Shown in pieces: positions 1,197-28,587 of a DNA stretch of 64,000 bases. The position numbers and the translations under genes were made by a program. The first letter of the stretch is position 1; the number at the start of each line of letters is the position of its first letter. The notes beneath the pieces were generated by a model that did no database searches, had not been told where the DNA came from, and saw only the letters and a list, made by a program, of their open reading frames with translations. The stretch is from Sphingomonas sp. (GTDB lineage Bacteria > Pseudomonadota > Alphaproteobacteria > Sphingomonadales > Sphingomonadaceae): assembly GCF_042096255.1 (NCBI RefSeq), contig NZ_JBELLZ010000003.1:18104-82103 (forward strand). The letters run 5' to 3'.

Positions 1197-1960
1197 CGCC
1201 GCCGAGGTCGGACGATTTCCTGACGGGGGGAGCGACCCCACTGCCCGAGCCGCGGCGCTATCCGCCGCCCGAGCGGCGCCAGGACATGGCGCGCCGCGTG
1301 CGCTTCGAATGCGACATGAAGGGCGTGCCGCTGCCGCTCGAGGTGCGTGGCCGTAGCTATGCCCAGCGGCTGAAGCCTTTCCTCGACTCGGTGCTGGCGC
1401 TGGGCGTGGTCCTGGTCTGCGCGCCGGTGTTCGTGGCGGTGGCGGTCGCAATCAAGCTGGACGACGGCGGCCGCATCCTCTTCATCCAGGACCGCACCGG
1501 CTATCTCGGCCGCCGCTTCCGCCTTTATAAATTTCGCACCATGGTCCCGGACGCGGAGGCGCTGAAGGAGGCGCTGCGCAAGCACAACGTCCACGGCGTC
1601 GACTCCCCCGACTTCAAGCTGGTCAACGATCCCCGCATCACCCGCGTCGGCCGCTTCCTACGCAAAACCAGCCTCGACGAGCTGCCCAACCTGTGGAACA
1701 TCGTGCTGGGCCAGATGAGCTTCGTCGGCCCCCGCCCCACCTCGTTCGACGCCAGCACCTACGGCATGGCGCACCTACCCCGGCTGGCGGTGCGGCCGGG
1801 GCTGACCGGCCTGTGGCAGGTCTCCGGCCGCGCCAACGTCGGCTTCGACGAGCGCACCGCGATGGACATCGAATATATCCGCTCGATGTCCGCCAAGCGC
1901 GACCTGGAGCTGGTGCTCAAGACGGTGAGCGCGGTGCGCAAGGGCGATGGGGCGCATTGA
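1193..1960 (+). CDS. Priming sugar transferase (bacterial sugar transferase family, WcaJ/WecA C-terminal type)
   Basis: C-terminal part of ORF 410..1960; ATG 1193 overlaps the upstream stop; YKFRTM, DPRITRVGRFLRKTSLDELP, MSFVGPRP, RPGLTGLWQVSGR motifs. Confidence 0.92.
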   Translation: MTPPRSDDFLTGGATPLPEPRRYPPPERRQDMARRVRFECDMKGVPLPLEVRGRSYAQRLKPFLDSVLALGVVLVCAPVFVAVAVAIKLDDGGRILFIQDRTGYLGRRFRLYKFRTMVPDAEALKEALRKHNVHGVDSPDFKLVNDPRITRVGRFLRKTSLDELPNLWNIVLGQMSFVGPRPTSFDASTYGMAHLPRLAVRPGLTGLWQVSGRANVGFDERTAMDIEYIRSMSAKRDLELVLKTVSAVRKGDGAH

Positions 1961-2137
1961 GCGGGACGCACGCCCCGGACCCAAGCGCGGAAGTTGACAC
2001 TAACTTTACACCGTCGATGCCTGCTTCCGCTTCCGACATGACGTGAACCAGGCACAGGGTTCCCGCGCGATAAGAGCCTATAATCATGTCAAAGAGCTGG
2101 CGCGACGATAGCATTGAAGACCGGCTGTAGGAAAGCT

Positions 2138-2560
2138 TCAAAGACGGCGGTGTTGACTTATTCCTCCCCCGGGAGGGGGAGGGGAACCGCCGAAGGCGGT
2201 GGAGGGGTAGTCGCCACAAGTGGAGGCCATGATGTGTCGAACCACTGCCTCCACGTCATGCAGAACCTCGCGGGCCGGTATGCGGATGGTGCGAACTCCT
2301 TGTCGTGAAATCCACGCATCGCGGATGGCATCAGCGTGAGGCCGGTCGCCTCGACTGTGCGCTTCCCCATCGACCTCGATCGCTAGCCGGCGACGGGGGC
2401 AGAAGAAATCGAGCACATACTCGCCCGCGGGATGCTGGTGCCGGAACTTCAGGCCGCCGGGGCGCTGGCGCAGGGCCTGCCACAGGAGGACTTCGGGCAG
2501 ACTCATCTCGCGTCGGAGCTGGGCGGCGCGCTTCTGTGTCCGTTTCGGGCCGTGGAGCAT
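2138..2560 (-). CDS. DUF559 / Vsr-like endonuclease domain protein
   Basis: AAQLRREMSLPEVLLWQALR, KFRHQHP, YVLDFFC, LAIEVDGEAH, RDAW..GVRTIRI pattern typical of DUF559. Confidence 0.9.
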   Translation of the reverse strand: MLHGPKRTQKRAAQLRREMSLPEVLLWQALRQRPGGLKFRHQHPAGEYVLDFFCPRRRLAIEVDGEAHSRGDRPHADAIRDAWISRQGVRTIRIPAREVLHDVEAVVRHIMASTCGDYPSTAFGGSPPPPGGGISQHRRL

Positions 2561-2616
2561 GCGGCGACCTACCCCTCCACCGCCTTCGGCGGTCCCCCTC
2601 CCCCTCCGGGGGAGGA
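2162..2616. mobile_element. Putative inverted-repeat-bounded element carrying the DUF559 gene
   Basis: Arm 2162-2215 is the near-perfect reverse complement of arm 2564-2616 and the two enclose the nuclease ORF; no clear target-site duplication. Confidence 0.6.
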
Positions 2617-2633
2617 TTGTGTTAGGATTGCTC

Positions 2634-3047
2634 TCACTCCATCCCCGGATAGGTCCGGAACTCCGGCAGTTCCACCATGCCCCTGGTCCAGCCGAGCCGG
2701 TCCTTGACCATGATCTGCGCGCCCGGCGGCAGCGCTTCGGGATCGTCGAGGGTGCAAGACTGGATGTCGATCAGCCCCGGCAGCGCCGTGGGGTTGCGAT
2801 AGAACAGGCCGGTGCCGCACTCGCCGCAGAACTCCCGGCTGCCGGTGTTGCTGGACTTGTAGACCTTGGGGGTGCCGGTGACCGTCACCGCCTCGTCCCT
2901 CCACGCGATCCAGCCGACCGCTGGCGCGCCGGACCAGCGACGGCAATCCTCGCAGTGGCAGAGCGCGTGATGCTCGGGCGGGCCTTCCGCCGCATAGCTG
3001 ATCGCGCCGCAGTGACACTTGCCGGTGGTGGCCCCGACTTCGGTCAT
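2634..3047 (-). CDS. GFA (glutathione-dependent formaldehyde-activating / CENP-V) family protein
   Basis: GKCHCGAISY, CHCEDCRR, REFCGECGT zinc motifs. Confidence 0.92.
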   Translation of the reverse strand: MTEVGATTGKCHCGAISYAAEGPPEHHALCHCEDCRRWSGAPAVGWIAWRDEAVTVTGTPKVYKSSNTGSREFCGECGTGLFYRNPTALPGLIDIQSCTLDDPEALPPGAQIMVKDRLGWTRGMVELPEFRTYPGME

Positions 3048-3123
3048 CGACTCTCTCCCGTGTTCGTTCTACCCTTGTTCTCATGGATTGCGCCGCGGGG
3101 CAAGCGCGCTTAACTGGCAAGGG

Positions 3124-5424
3124 GTGACCACAGATCTTGCCGATCCGCTTTATCTTTCCGGCCTGAACCCGCCGCAGCGCGAGGCGGTGCTGACCACCGA
3201 CGGGCCGGTGCTGGTGCTCGCCGGCGCCGGCACGGGCAAGACCGCGGCGCTGACCGCGCGGCTGGCGCACCTGCTCTACACGCGCAAGGCGTGGCCGAGC
3301 GAGATCCTGAGCGTCACCTTCACCAACAAAGCGGCGCGCGAGATGCGCGAGCGCGTCGGCCGGCTGGTCGGCGATGCGGTGGAGGGCATGCCGTGGCTGG
3401 GCACCTTCCACGCGATCGGCGCCAAGATGCTGCGCCGCCATGCTGAACTGGTCGGGCTTCAATCCAACTTCACCATCCTCGACACCGACGACCAGTTGCG
3501 GCTGCTGAAGCAGCTGATCCTGGCCGCGGACATCGACGAGAAGCGCTTTCCCGCGCGCAGCCTGGCCGGGCTGATCGACGAGTGGAAGAACAAGGGGCTG
3601 ACCCCGCGCGAGATCGATGCGGGCGAGAGCGAGCGCTACGCCAACGGCCGCGGTGGCGAGCTGTACGAACAGTATCAGGCGCGGCTGAAGGCGGTGAACG
3701 CCTGTGATTTCGGTGACTTGCTGCTGCATGTTCTCACGATCCTGAAGACCGATCGCGGCGTGCTGGAGCAGTATCAGCAGCGCTTCCGCTACATCATGGT
3801 GGACGAGTATCAGGACACCAACAGCGTCCAATACCTCTGGCTGCGGCTGCTGGCGCAGGAGCGCCGCAACATCTGCTGCGTGGGCGATGACGACCAGTCG
3901 ATCTATTCCTGGCGCGGCGCGCAGGTGGAGAATATCCTCAAGTTCGAGAAGGACTTCCCCGGCGCCAAGGTGATCCGGCTGGAGCAGAATTACCGCTCCA
4001 CCCCGCACATCCTGGGCGCCGCTGGCGGCGTCATCGCCAAGAACAGTGGTCGCCTCGGCAAGCAGTTGTGGACCGAGCTGGACGCGGGCGAGAAGGTGCG
4101 CGTGATCGGCGTGTGGGACGGGCCGGAGGAGGCACGCCGCGTCGGCGACGAGATCGAGGCGTGCCAGCGATCCGGCAAGTCGCTCGACGACGTCGCCATC
4201 CTGGTCCGCGCCCAGCACCAGACCCGCGAGTTCGAGGACCGCTTCATCGCGATCGGCCTGCCCTACAAGATCGTCGGTGGCTTCCGCTTCTACGAGCGCG
4301 CCGAGATCCGCGACGCGCTCGCCTATCTGCGCGTGGTCAACCAGCCCGCCGACGACCTCGCCTTCGAGCGGATCGTCAACGTGCCCAAGCGCGGTCTTGG
4401 CGACAAGGCGGTGGCCAGGATCCACCAGCTGGCGCGCGCGAACGGCCTGGCGCTCACCACCGCGGCGGCGCGCATCCTCGACACCGACGAGCTGACGCCG
4501 CAGGCACGCCGCGCGCTCGGCAACCTGGTCGGCGACATCGCACGCTGGCGGCAGATGGCGAGCGAGCTGCCGCATGCCGAACTCGCCCGCCAGCTGCTCG
4601 ACGAGAGCGGCTATACCGCGATGCTCCAGGCGGAGAAATCGACAGAGGCGGCGGGACGGCTGGAGAATTTGACCGAGCTGGTCCGCGCGATGGAGGAATA
4701 TGAGAGCCTCGGCGCGTTCCTCGAGCACGTCAGCCTCGTCATGGACAATGAGGGGACGCGCGACGACCCCAAGGTGACGATCATGACCATTCACGCCGCC
4801 AAGGGCCTGGAGTTCGACACGGTGTTCCTCGCCGGCTGGGAGGAGGGCGTGTTCCCCAGCCAGCGCGCGCTGGACGAGGGCGGCACGCGCAGCCTGGAGG
4901 AGGAGCGGCGCCTCGCCTATGTCGCGATCACGCGGGCGCGGCGACGGGCGGTGATCCTGCATGCGGCCAACCGGCGCATCTACGGCCAGTGGACCTCATC
5001 CATCCCCTCGCGCTTCGTCGCCGAACTGCCCGGCGAGCATATCGACAGCGAGACGACGATGACCGGCGGCGAGAGCCTGTGGCGCGCGAACTGGTCCGAA
5101 CGCGCGGACCCGTTCGCCGACGTCGGCCGCGGCACCGGGCGCGGGCCGGGCTGGCAGCGGGCGGCGGGCACGCTCGGCGGCAAGCCGGGCGGCGAGTGGC
5201 AGCAGCGCACCTTCACGCGCGAGCCGGTGCGCGTGGTGGAAAGCCGCGCGCCTTCGGTCAGTTTGGGCAACAAGGGCCGCGCCGACCTGTCGCTCGGCCA
5301 GCGCGTGTTCCACCAGAAGTTCGGCTATGGCGCGATCGCCGAGATCGAGGGCAACAAGCTGGAGATCGACTTCGAGAAGGCGGGGCGCAAGCGGGTGATG
5401 GACAGCTTCGTGAGCCTGGCGTGA
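3124..5424 (+). CDS. uvrD: ATP-dependent DNA helicase UvrD/PcrA
   Basis: LAGAGTGKT, TFTNKAAREM, VDEYQDTN, VGDDDQSIY, LEQNYRST, TIHAAKGLEF, EEERRLAYVAITRA; start taken at GTG 3124. Confidence 0.95.
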   Translation: MTTDLADPLYLSGLNPPQREAVLTTDGPVLVLAGAGTGKTAALTARLAHLLYTRKAWPSEILSVTFTNKAAREMRERVGRLVGDAVEGMPWLGTFHAIGAKMLRRHAELVGLQSNFTILDTDDQLRLLKQLILAADIDEKRFPARSLAGLIDEWKNKGLTPREIDAGESERYANGRGGELYEQYQARLKAVNACDFGDLLLHVLTILKTDRGVLEQYQQRFRYIMVDEYQDTNSVQYLWLRLLAQERRNICCVGDDDQSIYSWRGAQVENILKFEKDFPGAKVIRLEQNYRSTPHILGAAGGVIAKNSGRLGKQLWTELDAGEKVRVIGVWDGPEEARRVGDEIEACQRSGKSLDDVAILVRAQHQTREFEDRFIAIGLPYKIVGGFRFYERAEIRDALAYLRVVNQPADDLAFERIVNVPKRGLGDKAVARIHQLARANGLALTTAAARILDTDELTPQARRALGNLVGDIARWRQMASELPHAELARQLLDESGYTAMLQAEKSTEAAGRLENLTELVRAMEEYESLGAFLEHVSLVMDNEGTRDDPKVTIMTIHAAKGLEFDTVFLAGWEEGVFPSQRALDEGGTRSLEEERRLAYVAITRARRRAVILHAANRRIYGQWTSSIPSRFVAELPGEHIDSETTMTGGESLWRANWSERADPFADVGRGTGRGPGWQRAAGTLGGKPGGEWQQRTFTREPVRVVESRAPSVSLGNKGRADLSLGQRVFHQKFGYGAIAEIEGNKLEIDFEKAGRKRVMDSFVSLA

Positions 5425-9627: not shown

Positions 9628-9732
9628 TCCTCCCCACGCAGTGGGGAGGGGGACCATCCGCGCAGCGGATGGTGGAGGGGCGGTTCGGCTGGGCGGTGCG
9701 CTCGTGGCGGTCCCCTCCCCGTGCCGGGAGGA
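9628..9732. repeat. Copy of the cctcccc/ggggagg repeat family (full left arm, shortened right arm)
   Basis: tcctccccacgcagtggggagggggaccatccgcgcagcggatggtggagggg has the same two-hairpin architecture as 2162-2215; lies between convergent genes. Confidence 0.8.
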
Positions 9733-9738
9733 TCGAAC

Positions 9739-11376
9739 CTACCCTCCGAACGCCCGCACGCCGGTCAGCAGCAGCCAGTAGAGCCCGCCCGCCAGCGCCA
9801 TCGCGATCGGCAAGGTGAGCAGCCACGCCGCGGCGAGCTGCATCAGCGTGCGCTTCTGGAGCCCCATCCCGCTCGCCACCGAGGCGCCGGCCACGCCCGA
9901 GGACAGGATGTGCGTAGTGGAGACCGGCAGGCCGAAGCGGTCCGCCGCCAGGATCGTCCCCGCCGCGACCAGCTCGGCCGAGGCGCCCATGCCATAGGTC
10001 ATGTGCTGCTTGCCGATCTTCTCGCCGACGGTGACGACGATCCGCTTCCAGCCGATCATCGTGCCCAGCCCCAGCGCGATCGCGACCGAGACCTTCACCC
10101 AGAGCGGGATGAACCGGGTGCCCGATTCCAGCTGGGTCTCATAGGCCTTGAGCGTGGCGACCTGGCCGGCGTCGAAGGTGCCCTCCGGTTTCTTGGTGAG
10201 CAGTTTCGACGTGTCGAGAACCATGTACATGTCGTTGCGGATGTTGGGCGTGGCCTGCGCCGGCACGTTGCCGAGCGAGCCATAGGCCGCGACATTGCGC
10301 GTGAGGTCCTGCGAGACCGCGACCAGCGCGCCGTACACCTCGGGTGTATTCGCCTTGCGCTCCTGAAGGGCCTTCACCAGCACCGGGCGTGCCTGGTCGA
10401 TCGGCACCGCGGCGGCGCCCTTGCCGGTCAGCACCGCGCCCGCGGCCTGGCTGCTCTGCACGAACGCGGGCGTCGCGCTCGCCGGCAGGGTGCGGTTGAG
10501 CGCATAAGCGGTCGGGGCGCAGCCGATCAGAATCAGCATGATCAGGCCCATGCCCTTCTGCCCGTCGTTCGAACCGTGGCTGAACGAGACGGCGGTGCAG
10601 GTGAAGATCAGCAGCGCGCGGATACCGGTCGGCGGCGGGGCGCTGCCCTCGGGCTCCCTGTAGAGCTTCGGGTTGCGGACCACCTTGCGCATCACGAACA
10701 GCAGCAGCAGCGCGGCGAAGAAGCCGATCAGCGGCGCCATCCACAGGCCGGTCAGGATCTTGGACGCCTGGCTCCAGTCGACACCGGCAGTGCCGCCGCG
10801 CGAGCCGGCGTTGATCAGCTGGTTGGCGAAGCCGACGCCCAGCACCGACCCGATCAGCGTGTGGCTGGAGCTGTTGGGCAGGCCGACATACCAGGTGGCG
10901 AGGTTCCACAGCACCGCCGCGAGCAGCAGCGCGAAGATCATCGCGAACCCGCCCGCCGAGCCGACGTTGAGGATCAGCTCCACCGGTAGCAGGGTGATAA
11001 TCGAATAAGCCACCGCGCCCGAGGAGAACAGCACGCCCAGGAAGTTGAAGAAGCCCGACCAGACCACCGCAAAATGCGCGGGCATGGCGTGCGTGTAGAT
11101 CACCGTCGCCACCGCGTTGGCGGTGTCGTGGAAGCCGTTCACGAACTCGAAGCCGAGCGCGACAACCAGCGCGAGCGCCAGGAACAGGAACACGCCGATC
11201 GCCATCTGCTCGCCGACCTGGCTGGTGTCGATCAGCACGCTGGCGCCGGCATAGACCAGGCCGCCCAGCAGGATCACCGCAAAGGCGATCCGGGCGAAAG
11301 GGTGGACGGGTCGATCGAAGGAACGCGCAACCGACCGGTCGGTCGGCTCGCTCGGGTCCGCAGCTAGGGTCGCCAT
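9739..11376 (-). CDS. pitA: Inorganic phosphate transporter, PiT family
   Basis: FVNGFHDTANAVAT, GLPNSSSHTLIG, FSHGSNDGQKGMG, GLPVSTTHILSSG. Confidence 0.95.
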   Translation of the reverse strand: MATLAADPSEPTDRSVARSFDRPVHPFARIAFAVILLGGLVYAGASVLIDTSQVGEQMAIGVFLFLALALVVALGFEFVNGFHDTANAVATVIYTHAMPAHFAVVWSGFFNFLGVLFSSGAVAYSIITLLPVELILNVGSAGGFAMIFALLLAAVLWNLATWYVGLPNSSSHTLIGSVLGVGFANQLINAGSRGGTAGVDWSQASKILTGLWMAPLIGFFAALLLLFVMRKVVRNPKLYREPEGSAPPPTGIRALLIFTCTAVSFSHGSNDGQKGMGLIMLILIGCAPTAYALNRTLPASATPAFVQSSQAAGAVLTGKGAAAVPIDQARPVLVKALQERKANTPEVYGALVAVSQDLTRNVAAYGSLGNVPAQATPNIRNDMYMVLDTSKLLTKKPEGTFDAGQVATLKAYETQLESGTRFIPLWVKVSVAIALGLGTMIGWKRIVVTVGEKIGKQHMTYGMGASAELVAAGTILAADRFGLPVSTTHILSSGVAGASVASGMGLQKRTLMQLAAAWLLTLPIAMALAGGLYWLLLTGVRAFGG

Positions 11377-16524: not shown

Positions 16525-16654
16525 TCCTCCCCTGGAAGGGGAGGTGGCAGCGCAAGGCGCTGACGGAGGGGTAGCGTGCCGCAAGTGACCGATGGCCTGT
16601 GGGAACCTACCCCTCCACCGCCTTCGGCGGTCCCTCTCCCCCTCCGGGGGAGGA
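16525..16654. repeat. Gene-less doublet of the DUF559-flanking repeat family (MITE/REPIN-like)
   Basis: Right arm 16607-16654 matches 2569-2616 at 47/48 nt; left arm tcctcccctggaaggggagg...ggaggggtag is inverted. Confidence 0.9.
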
Positions 16655-19796: not shown

Positions 19797-19818
19797 TCCT
19801 CCCCCGCACGGGGGAGGA
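19797..19818. repeat. Solo terminal hairpin of the cctcccc/ggggagg family
   Basis: tcctccccc-gcac-gggggagga between convergent stops. Confidence 0.7.
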
Positions 19819-19823
19819 TTTCC

Positions 19824-28453: not shown

Positions 28454-28587
28454 GACTCCCCTCCCTGGAAGGGAGGGGCTGGGGGTGGGTGGAGGCCTGG
28501 CGATACGGCTCAGTCTTCCCCTGGCTCTCAGTACGCCGCCAAGACGCGACCCACCCCCGACCCCTCCCTTCCAGGGAGGGGGGAGTT
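28454..28587. repeat. Long inverted-repeat doublet between sdhE and mfd
   Basis: actcccctccctggaagggaggggctgggggtgggt ... acccacccccgacccctcccttccagggaggggggagtt; GANTC at 28454. Confidence 0.85.

What the first reader, a model, noticed from the sequence alone, without database searches (positions are those of the whole stretch)
2138..2616. DUF559 nuclease enclosed by ~50-bp inverted repeats: possible autonomous master of a REP/MITE family
Seen: the gene lies between inverted arms 2162-2215 and 2564-2616. The upstream arm supplies the gene's Shine-Dalgarno (GGAGGGG-N-ATG 2560), and the ORF reads through the downstream arm (DYPSTAFGGSPPPPGGG). A 47/48 identical arm occurs without the gene at 16607-16654, and related arms occur at 9628, 19797, 28454 and 32050. 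Knowledge: RAYT transposases are flanked by, and maintain, REP/REPIN families; DUF559 is a Vsr-like PD-(D/E)xK nuclease fold, not a recognised transposase. Inference: the nuclease may spread or maintain this repeat family through a non-DDE, non-HUH mechanism.
Basis: partly seen in the sequence, partly recalled or inferred. Interest (0 to 1): 0.72.

Follow-up and report, generated by a model that had tools for sequence, protein, structure and literature searches.

The report
Nuclease gene framed by triplex-type repeats
A small nuclease gene of unknown function (DUF559) in a Sphingomonas genome sits exactly between two mirror-image copies of a folded DNA repeat of the old, unexplained BoxC/"triplex-motif" kind, and comparison with about 140 related genomes shows that gene and repeat travel, persist and vary together, much as REP repeats do with their RAYT enzyme but with an unrelated enzyme.

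Summary
A 140-aa DUF559 ORF (2138-2560, minus strand) lies between inverted arms at 2162-2215 and 2564-2616, and its tail reads through one arm.

Each arm has a pyrimidine block, a complementary purine block, a covarying mini-hairpin and a mirror copy of the purine block. This is the BoxC/PIT/TM "intrastrand triplex" design with a structured second loop.

- **Arm flanking:** 4 of the genome's 5 DUF559 paralogs are flanked by their own arm pair and the fifth keeps one arm. The same holds for 32/35 loci in the genus and 75/77 relatives of this protein in Sphingomonadales.
- **Gene-less copies:** the genome holds 167 such arms, mostly as about 55 gene-less 100-144 bp doublets.
- **Insertion sites:** filled, empty and gene-less states occur at the same sites in different species. 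This lineage occupies at least 25 genomic contexts.
- **Selection:** the nuclease is under purifying selection.
- **Specificity:** type-I arms are abundant only where this nuclease clade is present (median 33 vs 1.5; >20 arms in 29/41 vs 0/20 genomes). Other DUF559 clades do not substitute.
- **RAYT:** none is present in this genome.

Best reading: a REPIN/RAYT-like repeat-enzyme partnership using a Vsr-like nuclease. Catalysis on the arms is inferred, not shown. This particular copy commands only about 6 arms, so "master of a family" is only partly supported.

The parts
2162..2215 (+). Arm 3' of the gene (type I). Layout: CCTCCCCC / GGGA loop / GGGGGAGG, then GGAA, mini-hairpin ACCGCC-GAA-GGCGGT, then mirror block GGAGGGG, then TAG.
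   Evidence: folds as two hairpins in single-stranded DNA, -18.2 kcal/mol, z -3.9
2564..2616 (-). Arm 5' of the gene (type I), an inverted copy of the other arm. Its third block GGAGGGG lies 11 nt before the ATG.
2138..2560 (-). DUF559 ORF, 140 aa. It lies in the same orientation as, and 74 nt downstream of, the GFA-family gene at 2634-3047.
   Evidence: closest solved structure is 3HRL, E 1.6e-11
2225..2542 (-). DUF559 (Vsr-like PD-(D/E)xK) domain, residues 7-112. It carries the residues that are invariant or near-invariant in the family: R16, W27, Q42, D51, F52, E62, D64, G65, H68, D77, R80.
2138..2224 (-). C-terminal tail encoded by the inner inverted stretch and the downstream arm (…STCGDYPSTAFGGSPPPPGGGISQHRRL). 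It is probably a by-product of reading through the arm.
   Evidence: the same tail occurs in orthologues because the arm is conserved
16526..16654 (.). Gene-less type-I doublet: arm(+) 16526-16572, 34-nt spacer, arm(-) 16607-16654. The right arm is the closest copy of the element's arm.
   Evidence: single-stranded DNA fold -44.4 kcal/mol, z -6.0
9629..9740 (.). Type-I arm (9629-9680) with a degenerate inverted partner.
28458..28581 (.). Gene-less type-II doublet (CCCCTCCCT..AGGGAGGGG..GGGGTGGGT). This is a different arm family, the one that flanks the paralog on contig C39.

Best explanation
The window holds one gene-bearing member of a repeat-plus-enzyme system that works like REPIN/RAYT but uses different parts.

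**The repeat.** It is a 45-55 nt arm built to fold in single-stranded DNA. It has a pyrimidine/purine hairpin and a hyper-stable G-N-A mini-hairpin. A mirror copy of the purine block can lie back on the first hairpin, which is the BoxC/PIT/TM intrastrand-triplex design. Two arms in inverted order form a 100-144 bp doublet.

**The enzyme.** It is a roughly 115-aa Vsr-like PD-(D/E)xK nuclease (DUF559). Its gene sits in the centre of such a doublet and is transcribed by read-through from the host gene upstream.

**Shown here by computation**
- Arms plus gene are inserted and inherited as one unit.
- Gene-less doublets are allelic with gene-bearing ones.
- Each nuclease clade has its own arm type.
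- The nuclease is kept by purifying selection.
- Arm abundance tracks the presence of the matching nuclease clade.

**Inferred**
- The nuclease recognises the folded arm and nicks at or near it.
- Repair or re-ligation then copies, moves or precisely removes doublets, with or without the gene, leaving no target duplication.

The window's own copy is a young or translocated member. Its site is unique among sampled species and it has a small arm sub-family.
For: **Architecture**
- Searches confirm the layout in the window.
- 4 of 5 paralogs in the genome have their own inverted arms.
- There are 167 three-block arms. Of 59 convergent pairs, spacers are 22-79 nt in 51 and 341-364 nt in the 4 that hold DUF559. 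The other 4 pairs (183-192 nt) lie in tandem arrays.

**Arm design**
- Mirror third block: 67 arms, against 8 with a direct copy and 2 with a permuted one. For type II the count is 27 vs 0.
- The reversed-pattern control gives 0-2 per genome.
- The mini-hairpin has a stem of 5 bp or more in 61/67 arms, against 3/67 when shuffled. There are 27 different stems, and loops are GCA/GAA in 50/67.
- Covariation score is 0.256 vs 0.069, exceeded in 0/500 shuffles.

**Consistency of arm flanking**
- 32/35 loci in the genus.
- 75/77 clade relatives from six sphingomonad genera.
- 19/28 loci across the phylum, and most of the rest have an arm on one side.

**Mobility**
- The glyQ|glyS junction is empty (GTGA overlap) in at least 12 species. 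It holds the DUF559 element in 5 species and gene-less elements in others.
- The filled species are not a clade on the glyS tree (AU p 0.0005), yet their nucleases form one clade.
- The serA|hisZ site is filled in at least 22 of 49 species and empty in G056. The sufB|sufC site is filled in 5, and two species have a gene-less doublet of the same type there.
- The window lineage sits behind clpX, near recA, behind comM and elsewhere in other species. There are at least 25 flank contexts.

**Function kept**
- dN/dS is 0.06-0.48.
- Catalytic-type residues are invariant.
- The upstream gene is co-oriented in 28/35 loci.

**Specificity**
- Free type-I arms have a median of 33 with the clade-A nuclease and 1.5 without it (Mann-Whitney 1.7e-8).
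- More than 20 arms occur in 29/41 genomes with the clade and 0/20 without it.
- Genomes with only other DUF559 clades have 0 type-I arms.

**Other**
- No Y1/RAYT transposase is present in the genome.
- A Caulobacter DUF559 protein causes DNA damage in vivo (PMC12907096).
Against: - No biochemical evidence exists for any DUF559 protein that it binds or cuts such repeats.
- Co-occurrence and co-phylogeny could arise from shared descent of one element family, without the nuclease being the motor.
- Only 4-5 phylogenetically independent contrasts were available (2-3 in the expected direction, none against, p 0.25).
- Up to 10 intact gene-less doublets persist in genomes without the cognate clade.
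- No target-site duplication or defined cut site was found.
- All copies are old: paralogs share 34-55% aa identity, and synonymous sites between orthologues are saturated. No recent movement was caught in this genome.
- The window copy's own arm variant is rare, at 6 arms.
Confidence: 0.5

Rival explanations
1. Passenger or homing gene. The doublets are spread or kept by host processes (replication or repair at folded DNA) or by an unknown factor. DUF559 is a selfish homing-type nuclease gene that has invaded the centre of doublets and rides with them. It may cut gene-less doublets or empty sites so that repair copies it in.
For: - DUF559 groups with Vsr and the homing nuclease I-Bth0305I in the PD-(D/E)xK classification (PMC3424549).
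- The gene always sits at the doublet centre.
- The same site carries a gene-less doublet in some species and a gene-bearing one in others.
- The same element lineage occupies glyQ|glyS in non-sister species.
- Doublets persist without the nuclease.
Against: - Only 1-6 of up to about 115 doublets per genome carry the gene, so homing into doublets is at best rare.
- Arm abundance depends on the matching clade.
- Element divergence is at least as large as flank divergence, so no recent invasion is seen.
- Gene copies at one site are stably inherited under purifying selection. Pure homing genes usually decay.
Confidence: 0.25
2. Host repair enzyme with structural flanks. DUF559 is a Vsr-like mismatch or damage nuclease serving the cell. 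The arms are ordinary intergenic triplex or terminator-like repeats that insulate or regulate it (mRNA stability, translation start) and have no enzymatic link to it.
For: - Caulobacter VsrA, which contains a DUF559 domain, is SOS-induced and functionally tied to a cytosine methylase.
- There is long vertical retention at serA|hisZ with purifying selection.
- The third block lies 10-11 nt before the start codon.
- The gene is co-oriented with the upstream gene.
Against: - A host gene would not appear at at least 25 different loci.
- It would not be absent from orthologous sites with exact restoration of a 4-nt gene overlap.
- It would not exist in 1-11 divergent copies per genome.
- It would not match its flanks by clade.
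- No methylase gene is adjacent here.
- Arm counts follow the nuclease clade.
Confidence: 0.12
3. Invertible switch. The inverted arms allow recombination that flips the gene relative to an outside promoter.
For: - DUF559 is 14-fold enriched among predicted programmed-inversion targets (PMC9881135).
- The arms are long, near-perfect inverted repeats.
Against: - No invertase gene lies nearby.
- There is a strong orientation bias, 28:7 with the upstream gene.
- The enrichment is explained by the arms themselves.
- This reading does not explain the gene-less doublets or the empty sites.
Confidence: 0.03

Closest known systems
REPIN / RAYT systems (Bertels & Rainey 2011, PMC3116915, PMC3337134)
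   Same: - Short palindromic repeats occur mostly as inverted doublets with a spacer.
- The enzyme gene is flanked by inverted copies of the repeat.
- Each enzyme lineage is tied to its own repeat family.
- Enzyme paralogs within a genome are divergent rather than recent copies.
- Some copies show long vertical persistence.
- Small repeat populations remain where the enzyme is missing.
- No target duplication is seen.
   Different: - The enzyme is a Vsr-like PD-(D/E)xK nuclease, not an HUH/Y1 transposase. PF01797 is absent from the genome.
- The repeat has a three-block mirror (triplex-type) design plus a mini-hairpin.
- Gene-bearing units themselves occupy many different sites, with 1-11 per genome.
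- No biochemistry exists.
BoxC / PIT / TMECO intrastrand-triplex repeats (Hoyne 2000 as cited; Holder 2015, PMC4666352)
   Same: - The layout is a pyrimidine block, loop, purine block, loop, then a mirror purine block.
- The arms of the paralog on contig C31 fit the published TMECO pattern CCCTCNCCC-N3-6-GGGNGAGGG-N3-GGGNGAGGG exactly.
- The repeats are intergenic and their numbers vary between relatives.
   Different: - The window's arms have 7-8 nt blocks and an 18-nt second loop with its own hairpin.
- The published work found no mobility gene near the repeats and did not describe doublets with a nuclease gene inside.
Vsr-like homing endonucleases (I-Bth0305I family; PMC3424549 groups Vsr, DUF559, DUF2726; structures 1cw0, 3hrl, 3r3p)
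   Same: - Same fold clade.
- Small free-standing nuclease gene.
- Patchy occupation of one exact site in non-sister species.
   Different: - It is not in an intron or intein.
- It is framed by long structured inverted repeats.
- It is accompanied by many gene-less repeat copies.
- Copies are stably retained under purifying selection.
Caulobacter VsrA (CCNA_02930), a DUF559-containing protein (PMC12907096)
   Same: - Same Pfam domain.
- It is the only in-vivo evidence that such a protein damages DNA.
   Different: - It was interpreted as a repair enzyme linked to a cytosine methylase.
- No repeat context was reported. I did not examine its locus.

Membership tests
REPIN/RAYT | Repeats occur as two inverted units with a spacer (REPIN-like doublet) | tested here: met
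   There are 59 convergent pairs. Of these, 51 have 22-79 nt spacers.
REPIN/RAYT | Enzyme gene flanked by inverted copies of the repeat | tested here: met
REPIN/RAYT | Each enzyme lineage associated with a specific repeat family | tested here: met
   Nuclease clades follow arm type. Type-I arms track clade A only. Only one arm type was tested quantitatively.
REPIN/RAYT | Enzyme is an HUH/Y1 transposase (IS200-like) | tested here: not met
   The protein matches Pfam DUF559. PF01797 has no match in the whole genome.
REPIN/RAYT | Enzyme is single-copy and vertically inherited | tested here: inconclusive
   The serA|hisZ copy is shared by at least 22 of 49 species. Clade A has 1-6 copies per genome and at least 25 contexts.
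BoxC/PIT/TM triplex motif | Three consecutive blocks: pyrimidine, complementary purine, mirror purine | tested here: met
BoxC/PIT/TM triplex motif | TMECO consensus: 9-nt blocks, loops of 3-6 and 3 nt | tested here: not met
   The window arms have 7-8 nt blocks and an 18-nt structured second loop. The consensus is met only by the arms of the paralog on contig C31.
BoxC/PIT/TM triplex motif | Forms an intrastrand triplex | not testable with these tools
   Only hairpins can be predicted.
Vsr very-short-patch repair | Vsr domain (PF03852) and linkage to a cytosine-5 methylase gene | tested here: not met
   Pfam gives DUF559, MTES_1575 and DUF2726, not Vsr. The neighbours are a GFA-family gene, a sugar transferase and UvrD.
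Homing endonuclease gene | Recurrent occupation of one exact site, with empty alleles in relatives | tested here: inconclusive
   At glyQ|glyS the filled species are not a clade. However, element divergence is at least as large as flank divergence, so an old gain with precise losses fits equally well.
IS/MITE (DDE type) | Terminal inverted repeats plus target-site duplication and a DDE transposase | tested here: not met
   Inverted ends are present. No consistent duplication was found. The only ORF is DUF559.

The most novel reading that the evidence does not exclude
DUF559 nucleases are the long-missing partner enzymes of the BoxC/PIT/TM 'triplex' repeats. Together they would form a second, independent repeat-enzyme symbiosis in bacteria besides REPIN/RAYT. 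In it, a minimal Vsr-like nuclease reads a folded single-stranded DNA structure (hairpin plus mirror block, with a G-N-A mini-hairpin as hinge). It copies, moves or precisely removes doublets without target duplication.
Probability: 0.35. Interest if true: 0.85.

Novelty: new variant of a known kind. Interest (0 to 1): 0.7.

Why it matters
- BoxC/PIT/TM repeats have been known since the 1990s, number in the thousands across proteobacteria and are linked to genome instability. Even so, no origin or partner protein is published; the 2015 survey states that none was found.
- DUF559 is a very large family with a solved structure and no assigned role.
- A specific, testable pairing would give both a function.
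- It would add a non-HUH, non-DDE route for the spread of short repeats.
- It would offer a small nuclease that may read DNA shape rather than plain sequence.
- It also bears on annotation. The proline/glycine tails of these ORFs, and many apparent 'programmed inversion' calls, are by-products of the arms.

Tried and rejected
1. **Clean empty site for the window's own element.** Seven congeners keep GFA-UvrD, but the other flank is not syntenic. The only exact-protein hit is a 920-bp contig that ends inside the arm.
3. **Target-site duplication.** GTGA appears on both sides at glyQ|glyS, but this is equally explained by the need to keep a stop and a start codon. Nothing consistent is seen at other sites or at 59 doublets.
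4. **Recent horizontal transfer of the glyQ|glyS element.** Rejected: element synonymous divergence is at least that of the flank.
5. **In-frame insertion into host genes, suggested by long 'open frames' (559 aa, 494 aa).** Both are artefacts of high G+C or a chance shared frame with the next gene.
6. **RAYT as the hidden motor.** No PF01797 match in the genome.
7. **E. coli ycjD as a clean parallel.** Only a degenerate two-block motif lies at its 3' end in K-12, so I do not lean on it.
8. **Strict regular expression for arms.** It under-counted variants (27/80). It was replaced by an inverted-repeat BLAST test (75/77).
9. **Some glyS pairs** gave absurd dN because of a wrong frame and were ignored.
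10. **Structure prediction and fold search** were not run. The Pfam and PDB sequence matches were judged sufficient.

Full report
**What is there.** The window is contig C3:18104-82103 of a 3.6-Mb, 68% G+C draft genome. Its relatives are named Sphingomonas. On the minus strand, 74 nt downstream of a GFA-family gene (2634-3047), lies a 140-aa ORF (2138-2560). It matches Pfam DUF559 over residues 7-112 (E 3.8e-25). The closest solved structure is the DUF559 protein 3HRL (E 1.6e-11). The ORF sits between inverted arms at 2162-2215 and 2564-2616. These are 44 nt at 95% without gaps and 49 nt at 96% with one gap, and none is expected by chance. The last ~25 codons are read from the downstream arm. 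Three corrections apply:
- The 'solo' arm at 16607 is half of a gene-less doublet at 16526-16654.
- 28454 is a doublet of another arm type.
- 19797 and 32050 are plain hairpins.

**Anatomy of an arm.** Read 5'-3' on its own strand, the arm runs as follows:
- CCTCCCCC, a short loop, then GGGGGAGG (hairpin A);
- GGGA;
- ACCGCC-GAA-GGCGGT (hairpin B);
- GGAGGGG.

The last block is the mirror image of the purine block, not a direct copy. Genome-wide, the mirror form occurs 67 times, against 8 direct, 2 permuted and 1 upstream. For a second arm type the count is 27 vs 0. The tool's reversed-pattern control gives 0-2 per genome. Hairpin B has a perfect stem of 5 bp or more in 61/67 arms, against 3/67 after shuffling. 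It uses 27 different stem sequences, and its loops are GCA or GAA in 50/67 arms. On 27 distinct 46-nt arms, three of its seven pairs change on both sides. Covariation is 0.256 vs 0.069, exceeded in 0/500 shuffles, and it collapses when partners are slid. From my own knowledge, C-GNA-G triloops are the exceptionally stable DNA mini-hairpins. This hints that the structure matters in single-stranded DNA, but I could not test it.

The three-block layout is that of the BoxC/PIT/TM intrastrand-triplex repeats. The published TMECO pattern (CCCTCNCCC-N3-6-GGGNGAGGG-N3-GGGNGAGGG) is met exactly by the arms of another paralog (C31).

**The genome's population.** A pattern scan found 167 three-block arms in three types. 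Of 59 convergent pairs:
- 51 have spacers of 22-79 nt;
- 4 have spacers of 341-364 nt, and these are exactly the ones that hold DUF559;
- the remaining 4 (183-192 nt) lie in tandem arrays.

The short-spacer pairs form units of 99-171 bp, mostly 100-144 bp. The genome has five DUF559 paralogs with 34-55% aa identity. Four have their own inverted arm pair and the fifth has an upstream arm only. The paralogs carry arms of type I (window, C14, C173), type II (C39) and type III (C31).

**Is the association general?**
- In 30 other Sphingomonas species the best DUF559 hit is arm-flanked in 28. With the home genome this makes 32/35.
- Among 80 relatives of the window protein (56-80% identity) from Sphingomonas, Sphingobium, Allosphingosinicella, Sphingomicrobium, Sphingopyxis and Croceibacterium, 75 of 77 testable loci have flanking inverted repeats.
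- In a sample across the phylum, 19 of 28 loci pass the same test. Most of the rest show a three-block arm on one side, even at 43% G+C.

**Is it mobile?** Three sites of the home genome were followed through 49-60 congeners.

*glyQ|glyS.* The empty state is a 4-nt overlap of stop and start (…GGCGGCGTGACCGAC…) in at least 12 species. Five species carry the type-I DUF559 element exactly there. Others carry gene-less doublets of types I-III, or unrelated palindromic elements. On a glyS tree the five filled species are not one clade (AU p 0.0005; at least 4 changes). Their nucleases do form one clade. Synonymous divergence of the element is at least that of the flank. This points to old events: either repeated insertion at one site, or one old insertion with several exact losses.

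*serA|hisZ.* The site is filled in at least 22 of 49 species and empty in one.

*sufB|sufC.* The site is filled in five species. Two species have a gene-less doublet of the same arm type at the same place. Gene-bearing and gene-less forms are therefore alleles of one site.

*The window's own lineage.* It lies behind clpX, near recA, behind comM and elsewhere in other species. Its arms are almost identical across species, while the gene is only about 65-78% identical at protein level. The 78 loci fall into at least 25 flank contexts, and the window's context is unique. No consistent target duplication was found.

**Is the protein kept and used?**
- Orthologous copies give dN/dS of 0.06-0.48.
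- D51, E62, D64, H68 and other residues are invariant or nearly so in 48 sequences.
- In 28 of 35 loci the gene points the same way as the gene upstream, and it usually starts within 40 nt of that gene's stop. This suggests expression by read-through.
- A DUF559-containing protein of Caulobacter causes an SOS response when a cytosine methylase is removed. This is the only in-vivo sign that such proteins cut DNA.

**Does repeat abundance depend on the nuclease?**
- The type-I pattern occurs 0-234 times in 61 Sphingomonas genomes.
- Homologues of the window protein (clade A) occur in 41 of them.
- After subtracting two arms per gene, genomes with clade A have a median of 33 free arms (range 0-230). 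Genomes without it have a median of 1.5 (range 0-20).
- Mann-Whitney p is 1.7e-8. More than 20 arms occur in 29/41 vs 0/20 genomes. Spearman correlation of gene copies with arms is 0.69.
- Genomes that lack clade A but carry two or three other DUF559 genes have no type-I arms. The link is therefore clade-specific.

Caveats:
- Species are not independent. Only 4-5 independent contrasts were available (2-3 in the expected direction, none against).
- Four genomes without clade A keep up to ten intact gene-less doublets.
- The genome has no Y1/RAYT transposase.

**Reading.** The layout, the clade-to-repeat specificity, the divergent paralogs, the long vertical persistence and the remnants without enzyme match what defines REPIN/RAYT systems. 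The enzyme differs, being a Vsr-like PD-(D/E)xK fold, and so does the repeat design. I therefore describe it as working like REPIN/RAYT without being a member.

The step from association to catalysis is inference. The main rival is that the nuclease gene merely rides in, or homes into, doublets that spread by other means. A host-repair reading and an inversion-switch reading fit less well. The 14-fold enrichment of DUF559 among predicted inversions is most simply a by-product of the arms.

**On the window's copy itself.** Its arm variant (loop CGGAG) has only six members including its own two. The commonest type-I variant (loop TGCAA, 19 arms) matches the arm next to the C173 paralog. 'Autonomous master' is thus only weakly apt for this copy.

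**Novelty.** Full-text searches found 25 papers mentioning DUF559 and none linking it to repeats. Nothing links TM/BoxC repeats to a nuclease either. The 2015 survey says no mobility gene was seen near them. Earlier notes of this scan describe the same pairing in other genomes. I treated them as leads. I re-tested the architecture and its generality here, and added the clade-specific abundance test, the allelic gene-less and gene-bearing site, and the mini-hairpin covariation.

Noticed in passing
L029-L066 (glyQ|glyS junction of 38 Sphingomonas species): The 4-nt stop/start overlap between glyQ and glyS is an insertion hot spot. Besides the triplex-type elements, it carries at least three unrelated palindromic MITE-like families in different species. 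One is a ~230-nt element with CGCGGAGACGCGGAG-type ends. The others are the GTCATCCCAGC…GCTGGGAT and GTCATCCCCGCGAAAGCGGGGAC families.
   Followed up: partly
G000 contig C173:2302-2973 (outside the window): Next to the C173 DUF559 paralog lies a tandem array of ~285-bp units, each bounded by type-I arms in back-to-back order. This paralog has an upstream arm but no downstream arm.
   Followed up: no
L037, L038 (G038, G035 glyQ|glyS elements): Hairpin B of the upstream arm is replaced by a ~70-nt nested multi-palindrome insertion. The two species share it although they are not sisters on the glyS tree.
   Followed up: no
window 2185-2199, 2580-2594 and genome-wide: The mini-hairpin loops are almost always G-C-A or G-A-A closed by C:G (50 of 67). 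This is the known hyper-stable DNA triloop type and suggests the arm acts as single-stranded DNA rather than RNA.
   Followed up: partly
L137 (G060 = Sphingomonas sp. MS122, 1723-3207): The closest homologue (77-78% aa) has no stop after the downstream arm. Its frame runs on into the next gene, a membrane protein that has its own Met start, giving a 494-aa open frame. This is probably chance, but a fusion was not excluded.
   Followed up: partly
L234 (Sphingobium naphthae plasmid p02): A clade-A DUF559 copy lies on a 485-kb plasmid, a possible route between species.
   Followed up: no
L143 3300-3860 (E. coli K-12 ycjD): The E. coli DUF559 gene ycjD ends in CCCTCTCCC-TGAAAG-AGCGAGGG, a degenerate two-block remnant of the TM motif. 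Its start lies in an unrelated 18-bp hairpin.
   Followed up: partly
window 19798-19820: A perfect hairpin CCTCCCCCGCACGGGGGAGG followed by ATTT lies directly after a stop codon. It looks like a terminator built from a hairpin-A-like unit without the other arm parts.
   Followed up: no
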